This document shows positions 3,433 through 35,797 of a stretch of DNA of 37,086 nucleotides, in pieces. A program made the position numbers and the translations under genes. This stretch comes from a virus (taxonomy: Duplodnaviria > Heunggongvirae > Uroviricota > Caudoviricetes), in IMG/VR virus record IMGVR_UViG_2671180770_000020, positions 1 to 37,086 of that record; one strand, given 5' to 3'. The first letter of the stretch is position 1, and each line of letters begins with the position of its first letter. The notes under the pieces were generated by a model. It did not search any database. It was not told the origin of the DNA and saw only the letters and a program-made list of their open reading frames with translations.

Positions 3433-4017
3433 TTATTGTTTGCTTTTTTCGTTCTGGTTGATGACAAATTCAATGTAACTTTCGATCTTTGCTTTCTCGG
3501 TTTCGGGTAACAATGCGTAGCGTGAGCGGTCATAGTTGATAGTCGCAGGGTCGTGCGGGTGAATCAGTAGTTCATATCCGTGACGCCCGAATGCGGATGC
3601 AACATTCTCCAGGGTGGAAATGGAAACGCTGACCTCATTGTTTAACAGGCGACTGATTGTCACCTGGGCGACGCCGGATGCGCGGTGAAGTTTTCCCTGC
3701 GTTGAAAGGTCGCGGCTTTCGCTCATCCAGCGTTCCAGGTTGTGAGCCGCCAGCTGACCAATGTCGCTTGGGCCGACAGGCTGAAAACCTTCCTGAGAAA
3801 GCGAGCGATCGATATCAAGCCAGTTACGGGGTTTATTGGCGGCAGCTTCAATTTTTCGCGCAACCTGGTCGCCGATAACCTTCTTGCCAAGAGCCCAGCG
3901 GTTTACCAGATTTGCCTGAGTTCCAAGTTTTTCTGCCATCCGCGTCTGAACACCATTGAATTCACGGTCGATCAAGTCGTTGAGATTTTGCCTGCGGACG
4001 TCCTGGATACTTTTCAT
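3433..4017 (-). CDS. Prophage repressor (CI-like) with HTH_XRE domain(s) and no S24/LexA-type peptidase domain
   Basis: 194 aa; N-terminal Cro/CI-type HTH (...QTRMAEKLGTQANLVNRWALGKK...); a second HTH-like segment (...VTISRLLNNEVSVSISTLENVASAFG...); no Ala-Gly cleavage site or Ser/Lys peptidase motif seen; divergent from the cro-like gene. Confidence 0.7.
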   Translation of the reverse strand: MKSIQDVRRQNLNDLIDREFNGVQTRMAEKLGTQANLVNRWALGKKVIGDQVARKIEAAANKPRNWLDIDRSLSQEGFQPVGPSDIGQLAAHNLERWMSESRDLSTQGKLHRASGVAQVTISRLLNNEVSVSISTLENVASAFGRHGYELLIHPHDPATINYDRSRYALLPETEKAKIESYIEFVINQNEKSKQ

Positions 4018-4072: not shown

Positions 4073-4135
4073 TTACCCAACAGGTAAATGCACCCCACAG
4101 GTAACTATCCTTGATTTTTGTTACCTTATGGGTGA
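4073..4135. promoter_or_regulatory. Right operator/promoter region: TTACC-N5-GGTAA at 4073-4087, GGTAA half-site at 4100-4104, near-palindrome TTACCttatgGGTgA at 4121-4135
   Basis: Putative rightward promoter TTGATT (4111-4116), 17-nt spacer, GAATAT (4134-4139); the 4121-4135 site sits between -35 and -10. Confidence 0.55.
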
Positions 4136-9345: not shown

Positions 9346-9394
9346 CATGTCACGAGTGGATTATGCATGATGAATTTGACGGGTTTTGAATACT

Positions 9395-9420
9395 GCCGCC
9401 AACTATGGCGGCTTTATTTT
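9395..9420 (+). terminator. Intrinsic terminator upstream of the terminase genes
   Basis: GCCGCC-aactat-GGCGGC followed by TTTATTTT. Confidence 0.6.
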
Positions 9421-9431
9421 GCATGGTACTA

Positions 9432-9464
9432 TTACCACAACGGTAACTATTACCACGGTGGTTA
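9432..9464. promoter_or_regulatory. Tandem palindrome copies (TTACCacaacGGTAA 9432-9446; TTACCacggtGGTtA 9450-9464) directly upstream of the small terminase start
   Basis: Located between the 9395-9420 terminator and ATG 9464. Confidence 0.45.
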
Positions 9465-10060
9465 TGATGCCTGCTGAACCTAAAACCTATAAACGCAAAT
9501 CAACGCAATTTAAGCCGCTCACAGCAATGCAGGAGGCTTATTGCCAGTCATACATCAAAACGCCTGAAAACCAGACTCAGGCAGCGATTAACGCAGGATT
9601 CTCCCCAAATACAGCGGCAGTTAAAGCCAGTGTCATGATGCGCGATGAACGCATTCAAAAACGGATTGCCGAGTTGATGGAGGAGCGCAACAAACGAATG
9701 CGCGTCAGTGCTGATTACGTTCTCATGCGCCTGGTGGAGATCGACCAGATGGACGTGATCGACATCCTCAACGACGATGGGAGCCTTAAGCCAATCCGCG
9801 AGTGGCCGAAAATCTGGCGCACTACGCTTAGCGGCTTTGATCTGTCATCGACCATCATGAACATGAACGAGGATTCGATAGAGACAATCCTCAAAAAAAT
9901 TAAATGGCCTGACAAGGTGAAGAACCTCGAACTGATTGGTAAGCACGTCGACGTCAACGCGTTCAAAGAACGCCTGGATGTTAATGTGAATGTGACAATT
10001 GCTGATCGCATAGCGGCAGCCAGGAAGCGACTCAAAGAACGTCAGGATGGTAATCAGTGA
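9464..10060 (+). CDS. Terminase small subunit
   Basis: Directly upstream of and overlapping (GTGA) the large terminase; start set at ATG 9464 because the TTG start at 9386 in the ORF track would read through the terminator hairpin. Confidence 0.6.
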   Translation: MMPAEPKTYKRKSTQFKPLTAMQEAYCQSYIKTPENQTQAAINAGFSPNTAAVKASVMMRDERIQKRIAELMEERNKRMRVSADYVLMRLVEIDQMDVIDILNDDGSLKPIREWPKIWRTTLSGFDLSSTIMNMNEDSIETILKKIKWPDKVKNLELIGKHVDVNAFKERLDVNVNVTIADRIAAARKRLKERQDGNQ

Positions 10061-11526
10061 CAGATACAGCGTTATCTCCTGAAGAGCAGTTGATCGAGGA
10101 TATTGCAGGGTTCACTCACGATCCGCTTGGCTATGCCCTCTATGCGTTCCCGTGGGGGGAAGAGGGGACTGAACTGGCACATGCCACCGGCCCACGTCAG
10201 TGGCAAGCCGATGCGTTCCGAGAGATACGTGATCACCTGCAGAATCCAGAGACGCGCTATCAGCCGCTTATGCTGGCACGCGCTTCGGGGCACGGTATTG
10301 GTAAATCAGCATTCATCTCAATGCTGATCAACTGGGGCATGTCCACTTGCGAGGATTGTAAGGTCGTGGTGACCGCCAACACCGACAACCAGCTACGAAC
10401 GAAGACCTGGCCGGAAATTATCAAGTGGTCGAACCTTGCTATCACGAAAGACTGGTTTACCTGTACCGCTACCGCGATGTACAGCAATGACCCTGGGCAC
10501 GACAAACGGTGGCGGGCTGACGCAATACCCTGGTCTGAGCACAACACTGAGGCATTCGCCGGACTACACAACGAGCGCAAACGCATCATCGTGGTATTCG
10601 ATGAAGCGTCGAACATTGCGGATCTGGTGTGGGAAGTTGCTGAGGGTGCGCTTACGGACGAAGACACTGAGATTATCTGGGTGGCGTTCGGAAACCCTAC
10701 ACGTAATACCGGGCGTTTTCGCGAATGTTTCCGCAAATACAAACACCGCTGGAAAACTGCGCAGATTGACAGCCGGACGGTGGAAGGTACTAACAAACAG
10801 CAGTTGCAGAAATGGGTTGATGACTACGGGGAAGACAGCGACTTCGTTAAAATCCGTGTGCGCGGCATATTCCCTGATGCATCTGAATTGCAGTTTATCC
10901 CTACCGGTCTTACTGATGAGGCAATGAAACGGGTGGTAACCGCTGCGCAGGTGGCACATGCTCCGGTGATAATCGGTGTTGACCCGGCATATTCAGGCGT
11001 TGATGACGCGGTGATATACCTGCGGCAGGGGTTGCATAGTAAGGTGCTATGGACTGGCAACAAGACCACTGACGATCTGATTATGGCGAAGCGTATCGCT
11101 GACTTTGAAGACCAGTACCAGGCTGACGCAGTGTTCATCGACTTCGGTTACGGAACTGGTCTGAAGTCAATCGGTGACGGCTGGGGTCGTACATGGCAAC
11201 TTGTTCCGTTCGGTGGCGTGTCTACTGACCCGCAGATGCTCAACAAGCGTGGGGAGATGTTCAACTCATGTAAGACATGGCTGAGGCTGGGCGGGATGCT
11301 GGATGACCAGGAAACAGCGGACGATCTGTCTGCGGCAGAGTACAAAGTTCGCGTGGACGGTAAAATCGTTATCGAACCGAAGGAAGATATCAAAGAACGA
11401 CTTGGGCGTTCACCTGGTAAAGGCGATGCGCTACTGCTGACGTTTGCGTTCCCGGTAGCCAAGAAAACTAATGACCCACGGCAGCAGCAGGGCAGGGCTA
11501 TAACAGACTATGACCCATTTGAATGA
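10057..11526 (+). CDS. Terminase large subunit
   Basis: 489 aa; Walker A-like ...ARASGHGIGKSAF...; acidic nuclease-type C-terminal half; GTG start overlapping the small-subunit stop. Confidence 0.8.
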   Translation: MTDTALSPEEQLIEDIAGFTHDPLGYALYAFPWGEEGTELAHATGPRQWQADAFREIRDHLQNPETRYQPLMLARASGHGIGKSAFISMLINWGMSTCEDCKVVVTANTDNQLRTKTWPEIIKWSNLAITKDWFTCTATAMYSNDPGHDKRWRADAIPWSEHNTEAFAGLHNERKRIIVVFDEASNIADLVWEVAEGALTDEDTEIIWVAFGNPTRNTGRFRECFRKYKHRWKTAQIDSRTVEGTNKQQLQKWVDDYGEDSDFVKIRVRGIFPDASELQFIPTGLTDEAMKRVVTAAQVAHAPVIIGVDPAYSGVDDAVIYLRQGLHSKVLWTGNKTTDDLIMAKRIADFEDQYQADAVFIDFGYGTGLKSIGDGWGRTWQLVPFGGVSTDPQMLNKRGEMFNSCKTWLRLGGMLDDQETADDLSAAEYKVRVDGKIVIEPKEDIKERLGRSPGKGDALLLTFAFPVAKKTNDPRQQQGRAITDYDPFE

Positions 11527-11529
11527 TTT

Positions 11530-12378
11530 TTACTTTTGTGTTTTTGATTTTCTTTGATAGGTGGAATTTAAATCACCATTTATATTTACTAGAGGATTAT
11601 TCAATAATGTACTGATTTCTGGATTGTTAATTCCAGTAACGCCAAATTTCTTTACGGACTCATTAAGGTCTTGTAATGATTTTAGACCTACAAACCCATT
11701 AGCAATTGTATTATTTGTTGCCAAAGGAATGTTTTCCTTATAGGACTCATATTCGTTTTTTAAATTTTTGTGAGCTTTTTCTAGATTTTCTAGTTTAGAT
11801 GTTGTTTCATCAATAACCTTAGATAATTCTAAAATACGAGCTTGTGCTGCGCGCAGTTCTGTCTCCCTCTCTTTCAATTCAGATGTGAGTTGTCCCATTC
11901 TGTCTTTTGAAAGAATTATTTCCTCTTTCATGTCTTGAATGTTTTTTTCAGCGCCTGTTTTTACTTTTTCGTAAGTAATGTCTTTTTTAGCCAGCAATCT
12001 CTGTAGCCGTGTTTCACGTTGTATTTTTCTTGCCTTCCGGTGGTTTTCGATTGAGTCATTATTATCAAGAGGTTTTGCTTGCCATACGTTAATGATATTG
12101 TTTACCCATGGTAATAGGCAGCAGATAGTAATTACAGATAAGCATGGATAAAACATAACAGTTTTCCATGTGCTGTTATCTGAGATGTATGAAATTTTAT
12201 CTATTATATTTGATTTGCTAAAAAACAGATAAAGAAGTGATTTCCAGTTGAAGGCGCACCAGGACATAACAAAAGCACCAAGCACAGGGTTTTTGGCTCT
12301 ATGCACGGCAGTGTTTGCAGTAGATAAAAACAGCTCTTTGAACGATTCAAACATACTAATTACCTTAAAGTTTTTCAT
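11530..12378 (-). CDS. Moron: membrane-anchored coiled-coil protein of unknown function
   Basis: 282 aa from ATG 12378 (MKNFKVI...); markedly AT-rich relative to neighbours; opposite strand to the flanking late genes; two hydrophobic segments then a long Lys/Glu-rich coiled coil; own terminator and palindrome upstream. Confidence 0.55.
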   Translation of the reverse strand: MKNFKVISMFESFKELFLSTANTAVHRAKNPVLGAFVMSWCAFNWKSLLYLFFSKSNIIDKISYISDNSTWKTVMFYPCLSVITICCLLPWVNNIINVWQAKPLDNNDSIENHRKARKIQRETRLQRLLAKKDITYEKVKTGAEKNIQDMKEEIILSKDRMGQLTSELKERETELRAAQARILELSKVIDETTSKLENLEKAHKNLKNEYESYKENIPLATNNTIANGFVGLKSLQDLNESVKKFGVTGINNPEISTLLNNPLVNINGDLNSTYQRKSKTQK

Positions 12379-12382
12379 GATT

Positions 12383-12397
12383 ATACCTTTAAGGTAA
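12383..12397. promoter_or_regulatory. Near-perfect palindrome copy (aTACCtttaaGGTAA) abutting the moron start
   Basis: A minus-strand TATAAT overlaps the site just upstream of ATG 12378. Confidence 0.4.
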
Positions 12398-12410
12398 TTT
12401 GTGGTCATCA

Positions 12411-12436
12411 GGCAAAAAAATACCCGGCGAACCGGG
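12411..12436 (-). terminator. Intrinsic terminator between the tRNA and the moron
   Basis: Minus strand CCCGG-ttcg-CCGGG followed by TATTTTTTTG. Confidence 0.5.
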
Positions 12437-12515
12437 CGAACTGGAAGCAATGAGTTATGCCTTCCGTGGCTGTACTGGTTTACAGCATGAAGTCATCGCA
12501 ATGGCGTCCTGCTGT

Positions 12516-12557
12516 AAAAAGGGCGGTGATAGTCCTTCAAGGGAAACTATCACCGCC
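12516..12557 (-). terminator. Intrinsic terminator immediately downstream of the tRNA
   Basis: Minus strand 12-bp stem GGCGGTGATAGT / ACTATCACCGCC followed by CTTTTTT. Confidence 0.65.
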
Positions 12558-12600: not shown

Positions 12601-12677
12601 TGGCGTGGCATGCAGGATTCGAACCTGCGACCAACCGCTTAGAAGGCGGTTGCTCTGTCCAACTGAGCTAATGCCAC
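12601..12677 (-). tRNA. tRNA-Arg (anticodon UCU), 77 nt with encoded CCA
   Basis: Hand-folded cloverleaf: acceptor GUGGCAU/AUGCCAC, D-arm GCUC-AGUUGGACA-GAGC, anticodon arm ACCGC-CUUCUAA-GCGGU, variable loop UGGUC, T-arm GCAGG-UUCGAAU-CCUGC, discriminator G, CCA. Confidence 0.9.
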
Positions 12678-13000
12678 AACACTGAGAGCACTTAGCCTGT
12701 TAAGTGCGCCACACTTTGTCGCGGCTCCATAAATGCTCTCATCGTTGTACCCTCGTCTCTTCCGAGGCGTCACACCGAATCGCCGGGATGGTGAATCCCC
12801 GTGCGCGGAATAAAACCGCTCGACTTGCACATTCCGGCTACCTGGTTCGTTTGCCCGAGCAAGGGAGGGTGCCCCTTAAACGTATCCAGACCGCTATCGG
12901 CGCATGTGCCATACGCCGTACTGCTCAAAATAAAAGCTCACTCCACCTGTTCAATTTAACGATAAGCCAGTCAGGTTAATAACCGGAATGAACACTTTAC

Positions 13001-30432: not shown

Positions 30433-31083
30433 TCAGAAGAACCCTGCCTTGTCGTTGATGTATTCCGCGTGAGTCTGGATATCACGCAGGCATTTGCTCA
30501 CACCGACGATGTAGCAGAACATGGTGGTCAGCTCCGCCGCCGCGCCCGATACATCGTGCCCGTCTTCCTGTAACTGGTTCAGCAGATTCATCAGCAGTGA
30601 GTTCTCCGTCAGGCCGAGAACACCAGATGGGGAATGAATCAGACTGCGGTAGCCGGGCTTCAGCGGTGCACTGTATTCTTTTTTGTCTTCCAGCTTGATC
30701 GCCTCCATAATGGCTGGCATGAAGCCTGACAAGACCTTCTCCACTTTTGTTTCTTGTTGTCTTAAACGTTTCTCGCATTCAATGAAGTAGCGTCGCACCT
30801 GGCGACCTTTTTCGTTACGCTCGACCATCGCCAGCTCTTTGGCTGTATCGAGGGTGAGGTGGTAGTCTTTTGCAGGACGGCCTCTGCCTATTTTTTCCCG
30901 AACTTGGGAAATAATCATAAAGTCTTGATTTTCAACGAAACCATATTCAGCAATTCGTTCGACAATCCACGAAGCAAATCGCTTACCCACATCGAGGAAA
31001 GTGTGTAAATCACGGGCATTAACGAGAAGAGCGGTTTCGTTGGATATAGTGCCGTTGAATACGGGGATGAGTTGAGCGTTCAT
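30433..31083 (-). CDS. Antirepressor (AntA-type N-terminal domain)
   Basis: 216 aa; N-terminal ...LIPVFNGT...NARDLHTFLDVGKRFASWIVERIAEYGFVENQDFMI... matches the remembered AntA/AntB antirepressor domain; GGAG upstream of ATG 31083. Confidence 0.7.
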   Translation of the reverse strand: MNAQLIPVFNGTISNETALLVNARDLHTFLDVGKRFASWIVERIAEYGFVENQDFMIISQVREKIGRGRPAKDYHLTLDTAKELAMVERNEKGRQVRRYFIECEKRLRQQETKVEKVLSGFMPAIMEAIKLEDKKEYSAPLKPGYRSLIHSPSGVLGLTENSLLMNLLNQLQEDGHDVSGAAAELTTMFCYIVGVSKCLRDIQTHAEYINDKAGFF

Positions 31084-31240
31084 TATGGCGTCTCCACTTA
31101 GCGAATTACATCACCACCGCTGAGACCAATCAGATGGTGGTGAACTGAACGGAGTTGGTCTTACCGGCCTAAGTGGTACCGGCGTCCTTTCGGACCCCCA
31201 TTCAGCCCACCATAATTCTGGCATGACTGTGCTATACGCA

Positions 31241-31263
31241 TAAAAAAACCACGTCTGGCGTGG
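31241..31263 (-). terminator. Intrinsic terminator between the small Ant-like gene and the antirepressor gene
   Basis: Minus strand CCACG-ccaga-CGTGG followed by TTTTTTTAT. Confidence 0.45.
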
Positions 31264-31354
31264 TATGCGCCACTTAGTAATCCGGGAGACCAATCCCGGC
31301 ACTGGATTTTGCCAGTGCCCGATTACTATGGCACAAGAGGAGTGCGATGTAAAT

Positions 31355-31853: not shown

Positions 31854-33848
31854 ATGACGGTCTCAACCGAAGTTGACCACAACGAATATACAGGTAACGG
31901 TGTTACAACTACGTTCCCTTATACCTTTAGGATTTTCCAGAAATCTGATCTGGTGGTGCAGGTGATTGACCTTGACGAGAATATCACTGTGCTGGCTCTT
32001 GATACTGATTACGCAGTCACTGGTGCGGGAGGCTATAGAGGCGGTAATATAATACTGTCGAAGGCATTGGCCAACGGTTATCAGATCTCTATATCACGAG
32101 AGCTCCCGGTTACTCAGGAAACAGATCTGCGTAATCAGGGTAAATTCTTTGCAGAGGTGCATGAGGATGCGTTTGATAAGCTAACGATGCTGATTCAACA
32201 ATGTCGTAGCTTGTTTCGTCTTGCACTTTGCAAGCCATCAAGTATTGCAAACTGGTACGACGCTTTAAATAACAGGATTAGAAATCTTAAAGATCCAGAA
32301 AGCCCTCAGGATGCAGTAACTTTAAGTTATCTTGAAGGGTATATAGAAGGTGGTGATAGTACTTTGCGTCCAGATATTACAAGAACTGGAGCTGTAGGGA
32401 ATAATATACAGCAAGCCATAAACTTATCTATAGCCGGTCAAACTGTAATTACGATGAAAGATGATGAAATTGTATCTTCATTGTTAAATGAATATGGTGT
32501 TGAAATTGAGCAACGCAGGGGGCGTGTATTTAATACAGAAGGTGTTCAACTAACAACGTATTCTGACCCTCGTTCCCGTTTTGTAACTGGTGACCAATAT
32601 CTTAATTATGTTATTAGCAAGATGATAAAAGCAGATGGCGTGGATAAATCACAGAAAACATATATTTTGTGGTCTGGTGACTCCACGATTGTTGGTGTTA
32701 ACTCTGAATTATGGCCACCAGCAACTATTGCTGATTTTTATGCAAAAAGGTATGGAATTATTGATGTAAAAAATACATCGTTAGGTCATTCAGGTAAAAC
32801 TCTATACGAATGGGGTAATTGGTATATTGATCAGGAATGGTCTGTTTTTTCTGCTGCTGATTTGATTGTTTTACGCTGGGGAATTAACGATCCATATTAT
32901 GGTTATACATTGGATCAAGTAAAAGACGCATTAGATAGAGGCCTTTCCAAGTTACGAAATAACAAATCAGTTTCCCAGCAATCAATTATTATCATGTCCC
33001 CAAACTCAACATCAGACACACCAAACGGACGTGATGAAAAATGGTATGAACAGTTAACAGCCGTACTTAGAGCCAAAGCAAAACAATATAAGTGTATGTT
33101 TTTTGATACTTACGGTATGTGGCAGGATTCGCGAGGATCTGCTGGTAACTGGCTTGACGACCCTTATGGCGATGGCAGGGGAATACACCCAAACTCAACA
33201 TTTAGCGCACAGATACATAAATTATTATTTGAATATATTTATGGACCGTGTGCTGTTATAAATGGGAGTAGCAACCTTTTTTCTAACAATGGTTCTTCCA
33301 TACAATTCATCAATAGCTCATATCCGCCAAATACTTTTCACATGGGGACTTCATGGTGGAGAACAAACCCTGATGATGCTTCTTGGCCTCTTGACGGTGT
33401 TATTCAGGTTGATAGATTTGTTGACGGAATAGTAGTACAAAAAAATTATGGTTATTCTTCAGATAATGCTCGCGTTTGCTTAATGAGGATTGGAAGGATT
33501 AGTGAGAATACATGGAGTACATGGCGAGGTAATCAGTATGATATGAGTGGCATATTGCAAAATGGTTGGTCTGTAGGTGAGGCAAGAAGTGGAACATATC
33601 AGAAATCAGCCGAGGGCGTTGTTACTTTATCTGCTGTTTTAACAGGTGGAAATACATCTGTTGGCACAGTTATTATGGTATTGCCAGAAGGGTTTAGACC
33701 AAAGAATGATATTTCTTATATTCCATCAGGTACTGATTCATCGGTTGCCCTCATTAATATACTTTCAAACGGTAAAGTTACAATTCAGAGCTATCCGTCA
33801 GGAACAGTTCTTGTAATTAATACGACATTCCCTTCATTAGTTAATTAG
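31854..33848 (+). CDS. Tail fiber/tailspike with C-terminal SGNH/GDSL-type esterase domain
   Basis: 664 aa; N-terminal virion-anchoring-like segment (MTVSTEVDHNEYTGNGVTTTFPYTF...); GDS(L)-like motif ...ILWSGDSTIVG... and downstream ...DGRGIHPN... (Asp/His catalytic-type motif); C-terminal two-thirds is clearly more AT-rich than the N-terminus. Confidence 0.7.
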   Translation: MTVSTEVDHNEYTGNGVTTTFPYTFRIFQKSDLVVQVIDLDENITVLALDTDYAVTGAGGYRGGNIILSKALANGYQISISRELPVTQETDLRNQGKFFAEVHEDAFDKLTMLIQQCRSLFRLALCKPSSIANWYDALNNRIRNLKDPESPQDAVTLSYLEGYIEGGDSTLRPDITRTGAVGNNIQQAINLSIAGQTVITMKDDEIVSSLLNEYGVEIEQRRGRVFNTEGVQLTTYSDPRSRFVTGDQYLNYVISKMIKADGVDKSQKTYILWSGDSTIVGVNSELWPPATIADFYAKRYGIIDVKNTSLGHSGKTLYEWGNWYIDQEWSVFSAADLIVLRWGINDPYYGYTLDQVKDALDRGLSKLRNNKSVSQQSIIIMSPNSTSDTPNGRDEKWYEQLTAVLRAKAKQYKCMFFDTYGMWQDSRGSAGNWLDDPYGDGRGIHPNSTFSAQIHKLLFEYIYGPCAVINGSSNLFSNNGSSIQFINSSYPPNTFHMGTSWWRTNPDDASWPLDGVIQVDRFVDGIVVQKNYGYSSDNARVCLMRIGRISENTWSTWRGNQYDMSGILQNGWSVGEARSGTYQKSAEGVVTLSAVLTGGNTSVGTVIMVLPEGFRPKNDISYIPSGTDSSVALINILSNGKVTIQSYPSGTVLVINTTFPSLVN

Positions 33849-34699: not shown

Positions 34700-35318
34700 A
34701 CAATTCCAGCGAGCTGCTGGTATTAGCGAGGCGCTGGCCGCTCGCTGGTTCTCGCATATAACTTCTGCGATGAAAGAGTTTGGTATCAGCAAACCAGAAG
34801 ATCAGGCAATGTTTATTGCTCAGGTCGGGCATGAGTCTGGAGGCTTCACCCGGTTGCAGGAAAATTTCAACTACAGCGTAACCGGATTGGCTAACTTCGT
34901 TCAGGCTGGGCGTCTCACTCAGGGGCAGGCTAATGCACTTGGTCGCCGTGCTGGTGAACCACCATTGCCACTCGAGCGCCAGCGCGCGATCGCAAATCTG
35001 GTGTACAGCAAACGCATGGGGAACAATGCCCCTGGTGATGGCTGGAATTACCGTGGGCGCGGGCTTATCCAGATTACCGGTTTGAATAACTATCGTGACT
35101 GTGGAAACGGTCTGAAAGTTGACCTGCTGGAGAATCCTGAACTGTTGGCGCAGGACGAATACGCGGCTCGTAGCGCGGCGTGGTTCTTCTCCAGCAAAGG
35201 TTGCATGAAGTATACCGGCGATATTGCACGTGTAACTCTGATTATCAATGGTGGCAGGAATGGCATCGACGACCGGCGCGCGCGGTACGTCACTGCCAGT
35301 AAGGTGCTGGCTGTATGA
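34689..35318 (+). CDS. Endolysin, glycoside hydrolase family 19 (chitinase-like lysozyme)
   Basis: 209 aa; ...[12 protein letters not shown]...[17 protein letters not shown]... are the conserved catalytic-region motifs of GH19 endolysins. Confidence 0.8.
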
Positions 35319-35797
35319 TCTGGGTATTCGTAAAAGCATACTGGAAACAGATGCTTATCGTGTTGATGCTTGCTGCTCTGTTCATCGTCGGAGTGGTTGC
35401 TTGGAATATACACGGCAGCCGCCAGTACGATGCCGGGTATGCGCAGGCGGAAGAAGACCGCAAAGACGAAGAAGACAAAGTTCGTCAGTACTACGAACAG
35501 GAGAAAGTGACCAATGAACGTGAAGCTCAGCAGAGGATCGACCAGGCGCGCAATGATGCTCTTGATGCTGCCGCTCGCGCTGGCCGGTTGCAGCAACAAC
35601 TCTTTGCCATCCGTGAGCAGCTCAGGCAGTATAACGCCATTGTCGGCGCTGGGACGTCAGCCGCAGACACCGGAGTTTTGCTTGCCGACGTGCTCAGCAA
35701 ATCTCTCGAGAGAAACAGACAACTGGCAGAGTATGCTGACCGGGCAGCCGAAGCCGGAAGAGTCTGCGAAAAACAGTATGACACCCTGACCAGATAG
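35315..35797 (+). CDS. Rz-like inner-membrane spanin
   Basis: 160 aa; N-terminal TM helix then coiled coil; ATGA overlap with the endolysin; contains an embedded lipoprotein ORF. Confidence 0.6.
35514..35789 (+). CDS. Rz1-like outer-membrane lipoprotein spanin, embedded in the Rz frame
   Basis: Alternative-frame ORF wholly inside the Rz gene; lipobox ...LPLALAGC...; Pro/Ser-rich mature part. Confidence 0.55.
   Translation: MNVKLSRGSTRRAMMLLMLPLALAGCSNNSLPSVSSSGSITPLSALGRQPQTPEFCLPTCSANLSRETDNWQSMLTGQPKPEESAKNSMTP

What the first reader, a model, noticed from the sequence alone, without database searches (positions are those of the whole stretch)
11530..12450. AT-rich opposite-strand moron encoding a membrane-anchored coiled-coil protein
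Inserted between large terminase and the tRNA, on the opposite strand, with much lower GC than its neighbours, its own upstream terminator (12411-12436) and a palindrome copy overlapping its promoter region. The 282-aa product has two hydrophobic segments and a long charged coiled coil. This is typical of horizontally acquired cargo such as superinfection-exclusion or abortive-infection proteins.
Basis: partly seen in the sequence, partly recalled or inferred. Interest (0 to 1): 0.6.

Follow-up and report, generated by a model that had tools for sequence, protein, structure and literature searches.

The report
Prophage cargo gene: membrane-anchored coiled-coil protein
A small, AT-rich add-on gene in an E. 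coli prophage encodes a membrane-anchored coiled-coil protein from a large, unstudied family that sits in phage accessory slots, probably blocks rival phages, and appears to be switched by the prophage's own repressor.

Summary
An 887-bp cassette (11527-12413) lies between the large terminase gene and tRNA-Arg in a phiV10/epsilon15-like (Uetakevirus) prophage. It is on the opposite strand and has the lowest GC in the window (0.34 against 0.49).

- **Gene:** it is real; dN/dS in the N-terminal module is 0.08. The start is probably 12354 (274 aa), not 12378 or 12450.
- **Protein:** about 60 residues of short helices, then one continuous 146-residue helix (membrane segment plus coiled coil), then a disordered tail.
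- **Family:** at least 319 clusters, with no Pfam, PADLOC or PDB relative. The N-module is conserved (78% identity). The C-module is swapped between alleles (21%).
- **Context:** always a lone gene. It occurs in this slot, in lambdoid replication/nin slots, twice in the P2 gpA-gpQ anti-phage hotspot, in SSU5-like phage-plasmids, in a Vibrio inovirus and in the Cronobacter chromosome. phiv142-3 has the slot empty.
- **Regulation:** the "palindrome" is the phage's operator motif TTACC-N5-GGTAA (14 sites; 0.66 expected). It overlaps the -10 box and is identical to the integrase-promoter core. The gene is therefore probably repressor-controlled rather than simply lysogen-expressed.

The best reading is a new single-protein phage-exclusion factor (about 0.45). 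This is untested.

The parts
11527..12413 (.). Variable cargo cassette (promoter, operator and gene) in the terL/tRNA-Arg slot
   Evidence: Homology with phiV10 and EC.W1-9 ends at the terL stop on the left and resumes at about 12414 on the right. GC is 0.34.
11530..12354 (-). CDS, most likely form: 274 aa from the conserved Met. RefSeq annotates 11530-12378 (282 aa, WP_000787770.1). The maximal ORF extends to 12450.
   Evidence: Met9 invariant; most homologues start there. One search shows a conserved AAGG Shine-Dalgarno and ATG. dN/dS is 0.08. phrog_4780 matches at E 1e-121.
11884..12354 (-). Conserved N-terminal module (residues 1 to about 157 of the 274-aa form): short helices, a membrane helix and the first third of the stalk
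   Evidence: Median pairwise identity is 77.7% across 124 members. Nearly invariant residues are R19, F28, W32, N36, W37, P70 and P82 across 102 distant members. pLDDT is 88-98.
12220..12288 (-). First hydrophobic segment (residues 23-45). It is kinked at the invariant F-N-W-K motif. Whether it spans the membrane, is re-entrant or is interfacial is uncertain.
   Evidence: AlphaFold gives helices 23-35 and 37-45. The segment stays below the 1.2 hydropathy threshold.
12082..12165 (-). Main predicted transmembrane segment (residues 64-91), the start of the continuous 63-208 helix
   Evidence: Kyte-Doolittle hydropathy reaches 2.02. Helix 63-208 is predicted.
11731..12045 (-). Basic juxtamembrane helix and coiled-coil stalk (residues about 104-208)
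   Evidence: Unbroken heptad register, score 1.725 against a shuffle 95th percentile of 1.65. pLDDT is 95-98.
11533..11883 (-). Allele-specific C-terminal module (residues about 158-274): the distal coiled coil plus a low-confidence Asn-rich tail of about 65 aa
   Evidence: Median pairwise identity is 20.6%. Nucleotide identity to the BE311 allele falls from 97% to below 45% after codon 170 of the 282-aa form. The tail is found only in the closest alleles.
12380..12408 (-). Sigma-70-type promoter: -35 ATGACC (12408-12403), 17-nt spacer, -10 TATAAT (12385-12380). The predicted transcript start is about 12373.
   Evidence: 10 of 12 matches. The TGATGAC...TAnnAT arrangement is conserved upstream of alleles in four other contexts. 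The transcript start is an inference.
12383..12397 (.). Operator-like palindrome ATACCTTTAAGGTAA (TTACCTTAAAGGTAT on the gene's strand), lying in the spacer and overlapping the -10 box
   Evidence: It is one of 14 TTACC-N5-GGTAA sites. PR has the same architecture. The 19-nt core is identical to the integrase promoter of phiV10 and AB104.
12363..12366 (-). AAGG Shine-Dalgarno, 8 nt upstream of the ATG at 12354
   Evidence: Read from the sequence. Purine-rich and conserved in position in other alleles.
12422..12437 (-). Backbone terminator that insulates the slot from tRNA-Arg read-through
   Evidence: It is identical in phiV10 and EC.W1-9.
12601..12677 (-). tRNA-Arg(TCT), right flank of the slot. 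It has its own terminator at 12557..12522.
   Evidence: The cargo gene uses AGA for 5 of its 11 Arg codons.
10057..11526 (+). Large terminase gene, left flank of the slot, convergent with the cargo gene (stop codons 3 nt apart)

Best explanation
This is a self-contained accessory cassette in the terL/tRNA-Arg cargo slot of a Uetakevirus prophage.

**Product.** It encodes a roughly 274-aa inner-membrane-anchored protein. The protein has a conserved N-terminal membrane module whose last helix runs on without a break as a stalk of about 145 residues. The stalk ends in an allele-specific distal coiled coil and a disordered tail.

**Proposed function.** It is a single-protein phage-exclusion factor that acts at the inner membrane.
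- The conserved membrane module is the anchor or effector, and probably oligomerises through the stalk.
- The swappable C-terminal module sets which competing phage component is recognised (ejection or entry proteins, or an early protein).
- The outcome is either a block to genome entry or infection-triggered membrane damage.

**Proposed regulation.** Expression is tied to the prophage's immunity circuit by an operator that overlaps the -10 box.
- It would be low in a settled lysogen.
- It would be on just after infection or on induction.
- It would be silenced late by convergent terminase transcription.
- Copies that moved to phages with a different repressor, or to a chromosome, would be constitutive.

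**Shown here:** cassette boundaries, dispensability, coding constraint, architecture, family size, modular N/C pattern, contexts, and operator identity and position.

**Inferred:** membrane topology, oligomerisation, who binds the operator and with what effect, and the exclusion function itself.
For: **Cargo status.**
- The slot is empty in phiv142-3 and holds different cargo in phiV10.
- Cassette boundaries were mapped.
- GC is the lowest 0.3% of the window.

**Real protein.**
- dN/dS is 0.08.
- 141 close relatives were found, and 319 clusters at E<=1e-10.

**Architecture.**
- AlphaFold mean pLDDT is 83.4, with a single helix over residues 63-208.
- Hydropathy and heptad register agree.

**Specificity-like modularity.**
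- N-module identity is 77.7% against 20.6% for the C-module.
- 1138 of 1500 pairs have N>=60% with C<25%.
- The recombination gradient is visible at nucleotide level.

**Always a lone gene in accessory positions of unrelated temperate phages.**
- The same slot in other prophages.
- Lambdoid replication/nin slots.
- An ant-proximal region.
- An SSU5-like phage-plasmid.
- A Vibrio inovirus.
- Two independent P2-like prophages, exactly between gpA and the portal gene. Rousset et al. 2022 (PMC9122126) showed this locus to be a reservoir of anti-phage systems.

**Works without a phage.** It is conserved as a stand-alone chromosomal gene in Cronobacter sakazakii and in Providencia.

**Regulation.**
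- 14 operator sites against 0.66 expected; equivalent sites in phiV10.
- The position across the -10 box matches PR.
- The core is identical to Pint.
- The palindrome has decayed in one Klebsiella lambdoid copy (KO-TP1) and in the Cronobacter copy. Another Klebsiella lambdoid (L014), whose own OR operators differ, still keeps it.

**Precedents.** Membrane-anchored exclusion at the entry site is known for P22 SieA (PMC10883804) and SNIPE (PMC13190303).
Against: - No detectable homology to any tested exclusion or defence protein. Pfam, NCBIfam, PADLOC and PDB give only coiled-coil noise. hhalign against lambda SieB gives probability 1.3%.
- There is no enzymatic or recognisable effector domain.
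- An operator over the -10 box predicts repression in the lysogen. That is unusual for prophage defence genes and fits an early lytic function equally well.
- The Cronobacter and Providencia chromosomal copies are not in recognisable defence islands.
- Topology is uncertain: only one segment is clearly membrane-spanning by hydropathy.
- The hotspot argument is guilt by location, from two contigs.
- No expression or phenotype data exist. No paper mentions the protein or phrog_4780.
Confidence: 0.45

Rival explanations
1. It is an early lytic-cycle accessory that serves the phage itself. Possible roles are host takeover at the membrane (for example blocking division or envelope functions), countering a membrane-based host defence, or tuning lysis timing. 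It would be expressed when the repressor is absent and shut off later by convergent late transcription.
For: - The operator overlaps the -10 box as at PR, and its core is identical to the integrase promoter. Both are functions that are off in a lysogen.
- The gene converges on terL with no terminator between them.
- In lambdoid phages the family sits in the accessory slot between the replication genes and ninB. From my own knowledge, not tested here: lambda's ren, which counters Rex exclusion, lies at this position.
- The variable C-module could track variable host targets.
Against: - Stand-alone chromosomal copies have a good -10 box and no operator, in Cronobacter (many strains) and in Providencia. 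These are hard to reconcile with a host-damaging takeover function.
- Copies in phages with a different repressor would be constitutive.
- The phage phiv142-3 is viable without it.
- The prophage already has a full lysis cassette, including an Rz-like gene.
Confidence: 0.28
2. It is a lysogenic-conversion or host-fitness factor unrelated to phages, for example envelope-stress tolerance, a membrane-organising scaffold, or a role in colonisation.
For: - Stand-alone chromosomal copies are conserved in Cronobacter next to lac genes.
Against: - The hypervariable, recombining C-module is typical of conflict genes, not of housekeeping scaffolds.
- The family is overwhelmingly phage-borne and occupies accessory or defence hotspots.
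- It is rare in E. coli: 61-87 of 5426 complete genomes.
Confidence: 0.15
3. It is a structural, assembly or packaging protein of the phage, placed there because of its position beside the terminase and head genes.
For: - It lies next to terL and the portal gene.
- Weak PHROG hits to tape-measure proteins, E of 4e-6 or weaker.
Against: - The tape-measure hits cover only the coiled coil.
- The slot is empty in phiv142-3, and phiV10 carries an unrelated gene there.
- The gene is on the opposite strand with foreign composition.
- Relatives occur in inoviruses, in P2-like phages and in chromosomes.
Confidence: 0.02
4. It is a chance ORF in AT-rich spacer DNA and not a gene.
For: AT-rich DNA has few stop codons in some frames. 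There is no Pfam hit.
Against: - dN/dS is 0.08, with 34 synonymous against 14 non-synonymous differences.
- Hundreds of homologues have invariant residues.
- The AlphaFold model is confident.
- The promoter and ribosome-binding site are conserved.
Confidence: 0.01

Closest known systems
P22 SieA (inner-membrane superinfection-exclusion protein; PMC10883804)
   Same: Both are prophage-borne lone genes that encode an inner-membrane protein in a podovirus accessory slot. SieA blocks DNA delivery by interfering with the ejection-protein conduit. This is the closest functional model for what is proposed here.
   Different: SieA is 162-164 aa with three predicted transmembrane helices, no coiled coil and a conserved FxRYPxEAxxFNK motif. 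It lies between genes 16 and 9 of P22-like phages. No sequence relationship to the present protein was detected: none of the Pfam, PHROG or PADLOC hits is an exclusion-protein family. The present protein is 274 aa, mostly one long helix, and sits in a different slot.
Lambda / P22 SieB (Pfam PF14163)
   Same: Both are opposite-strand lone genes embedded in a phage operon, with hydrophobic helices followed by a helical cytoplasmic part. SieB aborts the lytic growth of other phages.
   Different: There is no homology: hhalign probability 1.3% and no Pfam hit. SieB lacks the long coiled coil and the conserved-N/variable-C pattern.
SNIPE (membrane anchor + DUF4041 coiled coil + GIY-YIG nuclease; PMC13190303)
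   Same: Both are single membrane-anchored proteins with a coiled-coil region. In SNIPE, specificity regions have diversified, and the protein acts where phage DNA enters the cell.
   Different: SNIPE's conserved part is a C-terminal nuclease and its N-terminus is variable. Here the membrane module is the conserved part, the C-terminus is variable, and there is no nuclease or DUF4041.
T4 Imm, HK97 gp15 and other small membrane exclusion proteins (own knowledge)
   Same: All are small phage-encoded inner-membrane proteins that block genome entry. T4 Imm is made early in lytic infection, which matches the timing predicted here from the operator.
   Different: They are much smaller, have no stalk and are not homologous. 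The comparison is from memory and was not tested here.
phrog_4780 / phrog_13369 / phrog_35327 (PHROGs families of unknown function)
   Same: The protein is a member of phrog_4780 (E 1e-121) and is related to the other two (E 1e-23 and 1e-19).
   Different: None of these families has an assigned function, so membership names the protein without explaining it.
Scattered-operator immunity of phage P1 (C1 repressor with operators across the genome, plus the c4/ant immI module; own knowledge)
   Same: This prophage has 14 operator-like sites at nearly every transcription unit. It also has a C4 antisense RNA/isrK + AntA module. The cargo promoter is one node of that regulon.
   Different: The operator here is a symmetric TTACC-N5-GGTAA. 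The putative repressor is a two-HTH protein unrelated to C1. Binding has not been shown.

Membership tests
Phage moron (independent accessory unit, sensu Hendrix) | Lies between two genes that are adjacent in related phages | tested here: met
   phiv142-3 has terL followed directly by the terminator and tRNA-Arg region. Cassette boundaries were mapped against phiV10 and EC.W1-9.
Phage moron (independent accessory unit, sensu Hendrix) | Nucleotide composition differs from its neighbours | tested here: met
   GC is 0.338 against 0.487, the lowest 0.3% of windows. GC3 is 0.30 against 0.53-0.59 in terL, portal and capsid genes.
Phage moron (independent accessory unit, sensu Hendrix) | Own promoter and own terminator | tested here: inconclusive
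   A promoter-like site matching 10 of 12 positions is conserved across alleles. No terminator follows the gene: its stop is 3 nt from the terL stop, and only weak hairpins lie inside terL. The upstream terminator belongs to the backbone.
Phage moron (independent accessory unit, sensu Hendrix) | Expressed from the repressed prophage | not testable with these tools
   The operator over the -10 box argues against simple constitutive expression in this phage. RNA data or reporter fusions are needed.
phrog_4780 | Full-length match to the family profile | tested here: met
   E 1.1e-121, residues 9-282 against profile positions 1-269 of 275.
P22 SieA family | About 160-200 aa with 3-4 transmembrane helices, the FxRYPxEAxxFNK motif, and a position between genes 16 and 9 of P22-like phages (PMC10883804) | tested here: not met
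   The protein is 274 aa with one clear and one weak hydrophobic segment. The motif is absent from the sequence. The slot and phage type differ.
SieB (PF14163) | Sequence or profile similarity to lambda/P22 SieB | tested here: not met
   No Pfam hit. hhalign of the family alignment against lambda SieB gives probability 1.3%.
SNIPE / DUF4041-nuclease defence proteins | DUF4041 domain and a C-terminal GIY-YIG/T5orf172 nuclease | tested here: not met
   Neither domain is found in this protein or in 102 family members.
Any system in PADLOC-DB v2.0.0 | Significant match outside low-complexity or coiled-coil regions | tested here: not met
   Only coiled-coil matches to LmuB, JetC, DruC and PD-Lambda-1, with E of 6e-5 or weaker, all confined to residues about 105-253. 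The same holds for 102 relatives.
i-spanin (Rz-like) | N-terminal transmembrane helix plus periplasmic coiled coil, encoded in the lysis cassette with a partner o-spanin | tested here: not met
   The gene is about 23 kb from the lysis genes and has no partner gene. The closely related prophage in E. coli AB104 (99.9% identical at this locus) is annotated with a DUF2514 Rz-like gene, matching the window ORF at 35315-35797. Relatives occur in non-lytic inoviruses and in chromosomes.
Anti-phage systems of the P2 gpA-gpQ hotspot (Rousset et al. 2022) | Encoded between gpA and the portal gene of P2-like prophages | tested here: inconclusive
   This gene itself is not in a P2-like phage. Two distant superfamily members occupy that hotspot: P0205 (N-module profile E 5e-20) and P0214 (E 2.5e-18). 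The validated 2TM protein of the AC1 system shows no similarity by eye. Activity was not tested.

The most novel reading that the evidence does not exclude
This gene belongs to a large, so far unrecognised superfamily of single-protein, membrane-anchored coiled-coil phage-exclusion factors. The superfamily has at least 319 clusters at 50% identity and no Pfam or defence-database entry. It spreads among podo-, sipho-, myo- and inoviral temperate phages and phage-plasmids. In Uetakeviruses the factor would be gated by the prophage's own repressor. It would then protect the cell in the window when immunity is down, just after infection or on induction. That timing logic is known for lytic phages such as T4 (Imm) but has not been described for prophage cargo.
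Probability: 0.2. Interest if true: 0.75.

Novelty: new variant of a known kind. Interest (0 to 1): 0.55.

Why it matters
- **A new family to test.** If the exclusion function holds, this adds a widespread, enzyme-free, single-gene family to the list of phage-encoded anti-phage factors. Its modular layout (conserved membrane module, swappable C-terminal module) makes specificity directly testable by domain swaps.
- **A cargo slot to mine.** The terL/tRNA-Arg position is a cargo slot in Uetakeviruses, comparable to the P2/P4 hotspots, and could be searched for further systems.
- **An unusual regulatory link.** Accessory cargo is plugged into a P1-like regulon of 14 scattered operators. This bears on when prophage cargo is expressed and on how cassettes adapt, or lose the operator, after moving to phages with another repressor.
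- **Annotation.** The start codon should probably be moved to the conserved Met. The family merits a domain model.

Tried and rejected
**Sequence and profile searches that found nothing useful**
- Pfam, NCBIfam, PADLOC and PDB sequence searches gave only coiled-coil noise.
- The same was true for 102 distant relatives.
- A profile search through the word-indexed database with a diverse N-module alignment reached no new or named relatives.

**Structure searches**
- The first AlphaFold model, from 29 sequences, was poor (pLDDT 67.6).
- The afdb50 library was unavailable.

**Candidate relatives tested and rejected**
- Lambda SieB: hhalign probability 1.3%.
- P22 SieA: different size, helix count and motif.
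- The 2TM protein of the validated AC1 '2TM+1TM+TIR' system: no similarity by eye.
- Mimicry of the prophage's own proteins by the C-module: no tblastn hit below E 0.6 in the window.

**Literature**
- No paper mentions WP_000787770 or phrog_4780.
- The ZX5 repressor paper does not define operators.
- The epsilon15 genome paper is not held.
- The LF82 'Gally' transcriptome paper concerns a P22-like prophage, not a Uetakevirus.

**Other**
- Rfam found nothing in the cassette or in the conserved non-coding stretch beside the tRNA.
- I first read the palindrome as a separate late-promoter or activator site. I dropped that reading once the same motif turned up three times in the cI-cro intergenic region.
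Full report
**1. What is there**

The window is a phiV10/epsilon15-like (Uetakevirus) prophage of E. coli. Around the finding it is 99.9% identical to strain AB104, where the gene is annotated as hypothetical protein WP_000787770.1.

Between the large terminase gene (10057-11526, +) and tRNA-Arg(TCT) (12601-12677, -) lies an opposite-strand ORF, 11530-12450. Its GC is 0.338 against 0.487 for the window. That is the lowest 0.3% of all windows of that length.

**2. Boundaries and dispensability**

Homology with phiV10 and with phage EC.W1-9 stops at the terL stop codon. It resumes at about 12414, just before a hairpin with a T-run at 12437..12422. The variable cassette is therefore 11527-12413. 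The 'upstream terminator' is part of the backbone. It insulates the slot from read-through from the tRNA gene, which has a further terminator at 12557..12522.

The slot's contents differ between phages:
- In phiV10 it holds an unrelated gene of the N4 gp49 / Sf6 gp66 family.
- In the phage phiv142-3 it is empty.
- In other E. coli, Salmonella and Klebsiella prophages it holds other alleles of the present family.

The gene is thus dispensable cargo, not a structural or assembly gene.

**3. The gene and its start**

Between this allele and the BE311 allele, the N-terminal 168 codons show 34 synonymous and 14 non-synonymous differences. This gives dN/dS = 0.08, so the reading frame is real.

In an alignment of 29 homologues, all but two begin at the Met that is residue 9 of the annotated 282-aa form. 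That Met is invariant.

Upstream, a block is conserved in alleles from five different contexts. It consists of:
- a -35-like TGATGACC element;
- a palindrome;
- a -10 box of form TAnnAT;
- an A-rich stretch;
- AAGG followed by the ATG.

With the -10 box at 12385-12380, the transcript would start near 12373. That is downstream of the ATG at 12378. I therefore place the start at 12354 (274 aa). This is an inference from conservation, not a mapped start.

**4. The protein**

With a 102-sequence alignment, AlphaFold gives mean pLDDT 83.4. The model has:
- four short helices (residues 2-60);
- one unbroken helix from residue 63 to 208;
- a low-confidence tail.

Residues 64-91 form the only strongly hydrophobic stretch. 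Residues 23-45 are weakly hydrophobic and are kinked at an invariant F-N-W-K motif. The heptad register is continuous over about 90 residues.

The helix that emerges from the membrane is strongly basic. I therefore infer that the stalk is cytoplasmic, at roughly 70% confidence. Topology was not testable here.

**5. The family**

The protein belongs to phrog_4780 (E 1e-121), whose function is unknown. A profile of the N-module finds 319 clusters at 50% identity with E<=1e-10. All carry the module at the extreme N-terminus, and most are 200-400 aa long.

No relative is known outside the family:
- Neither this protein nor 102 distant relatives match any Pfam or PADLOC family beyond coiled-coil noise.

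Across 124 close members, the N-module has median pairwise identity 77.7% and the C-module 20.6%. One allele is 93% identical in the N-module and 26% in the C-module. Nucleotide identity slides from 97% to below 45% across codons 100-170. This is the mark of recombinational module exchange.

**6. Contexts**

The gene is always alone. In the contexts examined here it sits on the strand opposite its phage neighbours, except in the Vibrio inovirus and in P2-like prophages, where gpA is co-oriented with it. Contexts found:
- the terL slot of Uetakevirus-like prophages;
- the slot between replication genes and ninB or nin-like genes in Klebsiella lambdoid phages;
- the ant-proximal accessory region of another podovirus-like prophage;
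- between parA and tail genes in SSU5-like phage-plasmids of about 112 kb;
- a Vibrio parahaemolyticus inovirus;
- two independent P2-like prophages, between gpA and the portal gene;
- phage-free chromosomal sites in Cronobacter sakazakii and Providencia.

Rousset et al. showed that the gpA-gpQ locus is a hotspot of anti-phage systems (PMC9122126).

The close family is rare in E. coli. It was detected in 61-87 of 5426 complete genomes. The exact allele and locus occur in 18.

**7. The palindrome is the phage's operator**

Allowing one mismatch, the window has 14 sites against 0.66 expected (maximum 4 in 100 shuffles). phiV10 has 14 sites at equivalent places.

The sites lie as follows:
- Two lie in the cI-cro intergenic region, with a third, weaker copy (two mismatches, at about 4091) read from the sequence. 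The one at 4121 sits between a -35-like TTGATT and the -10 region of the rightward promoter.
- Two lie at the left operator region.
- The others precede the replication, nin-like, terminase, head and antirepressor/tailspike units.

The cargo promoter has the same layout. Its -35 is followed by 5 nt and then by an operator whose last three bases begin the TATAAT box. Its 19-nt core (ATTACCTTAAAGGTATA.T) is identical to the sequence upstream of the integrase gene in phiV10 and AB104.

The putative repressor (3433-4017) has two helix-turn-helix domains and no peptidase domain. An AntA antirepressor gene with C4 and isrK antisense RNAs lies at 30.4-31.3 kb.

I infer that the cargo gene is part of the repressor regulon. 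It would be low in a stable lysogen, on after infection or induction, and later opposed by convergent terminase transcription.

The palindrome's fate outside Uetakeviruses is mixed:
- It survives in one Klebsiella lambdoid prophage (L014) whose own operators differ.
- It has decayed in a second Klebsiella lambdoid phage (KO-TP1).
- It has decayed in the Cronobacter copy.

This suggests that it matters only alongside the matching repressor. Those Klebsiella copies also retain about 200 bp of Uetakevirus backbone upstream. That points to transfer from a Uetakevirus slot.

**8. Interpretation**

The architecture, the conserved-N/variable-C pattern, the lone-gene mobility among unrelated temperate phages, the occupancy of the P2 hotspot and the existence of phage-free copies together favour a single-protein exclusion or defence factor acting at the inner membrane (confidence about 0.45). 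P22 SieA and SNIPE are mechanistic precedents, not relatives.

The operator makes an early lytic accessory role a serious rival (about 0.28). A phage-unrelated host function is less likely (about 0.15). Structural and 'not a gene' readings are effectively excluded.

**9. Novelty and score**

The kind of element, a prophage cargo gene for a membrane protein, is familiar. The family is uncharacterised, large and absent from domain and defence databases. Its wiring to the immunity operator is unusual. I rate it a new variant of a known kind, with interest 0.55. It is a well-defined, cheap-to-test candidate, but no function has been shown.

Noticed in passing
window 3299, 3361, 4073, 4121, 4458, 6404, 6466, 9432, 9450, 12383, 13001, 30353, 31355, 31735 (15-nt sites): There is a genome-wide set of 14 TTACC-N5-GGTAA palindromes (0.66 expected). 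They sit in front of nearly every transcription unit, and phiV10 has the same 14-site pattern. This looks like a P1-style scattered-operator immunity system, which I could not find described in the papers available here.
   Followed up: partly
window 31133-31217 (-) and 31242-31318 (-); 30433-31083 (-): Rfam finds a C4 antisense RNA (61 bits) and isrK (68 bits) immediately upstream of an AntA-family antirepressor gene. This is a P1/P7 immI-like module. The repressor at 3433-4017 has two HTH domains and no self-cleavage domain, so induction probably goes through the antirepressor.
   Followed up: partly
window 12601-12677 (-) and 11530-12354 (-): The cargo gene uses the rare AGA codon for 5 of its 11 arginines. 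The terminase, portal and capsid genes use none. The adjacent co-oriented tRNA-Arg(TCT) reads AGA.
   Followed up: partly
window 12671-12919: About 250 nt of non-coding DNA upstream of the tRNA gene is 82-83% identical to unannotated stretches of P1, P7, cdtI, mEp460 and 2H10. It has no Rfam match. Its function is unknown.
   Followed up: partly
window 9386-9470: The listed small-terminase ORF and the RefSeq annotation both start upstream of two operator sites (9432, 9450). The real start is probably the ATG near 9467. The phiV10 annotation has the same issue.
   Followed up: no
window 12355-12370 and 12387-12402: A 16-nt inverted repeat (94% complementary) is specific to this allele group. 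It duplicates an operator half-site into the 5' leader and creates the extra in-frame ATG at 12378 that annotation uses as the start.
   Followed up: partly
window 11524-11532: The terL and cargo stop codons are convergent and 3 nt apart, with no terminator between them. Late transcription must run antisense through the cargo gene and the tRNA gene. Alternatively the head genes use their own promoter at the 13001 operator.
   Followed up: no
window about 31950-33700: A second low-GC block (below 0.40) covers most of the 664-aa tailspike-like ORF (31854-33848). This is consistent with a separately acquired receptor-binding module.
   Followed up: no
L038 1-1513 and 8001-9545 (Pantoea P2-like prophage): The same P2-like prophage carries a NACHT/STAND-type gene next to its repressor gene. 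It also carries a 514-aa member of the present superfamily as the main occupant of the gpA-portal hotspot, beside one 58-aa ORF.
   Followed up: no
NZ_CP079771.1 (41,027-bp E. coli 'plasmid', hit H82): A 41-kb record labelled as a plasmid carries this gene family. Its size suggests an excised or episomal Uetakevirus genome.
   Followed up: no
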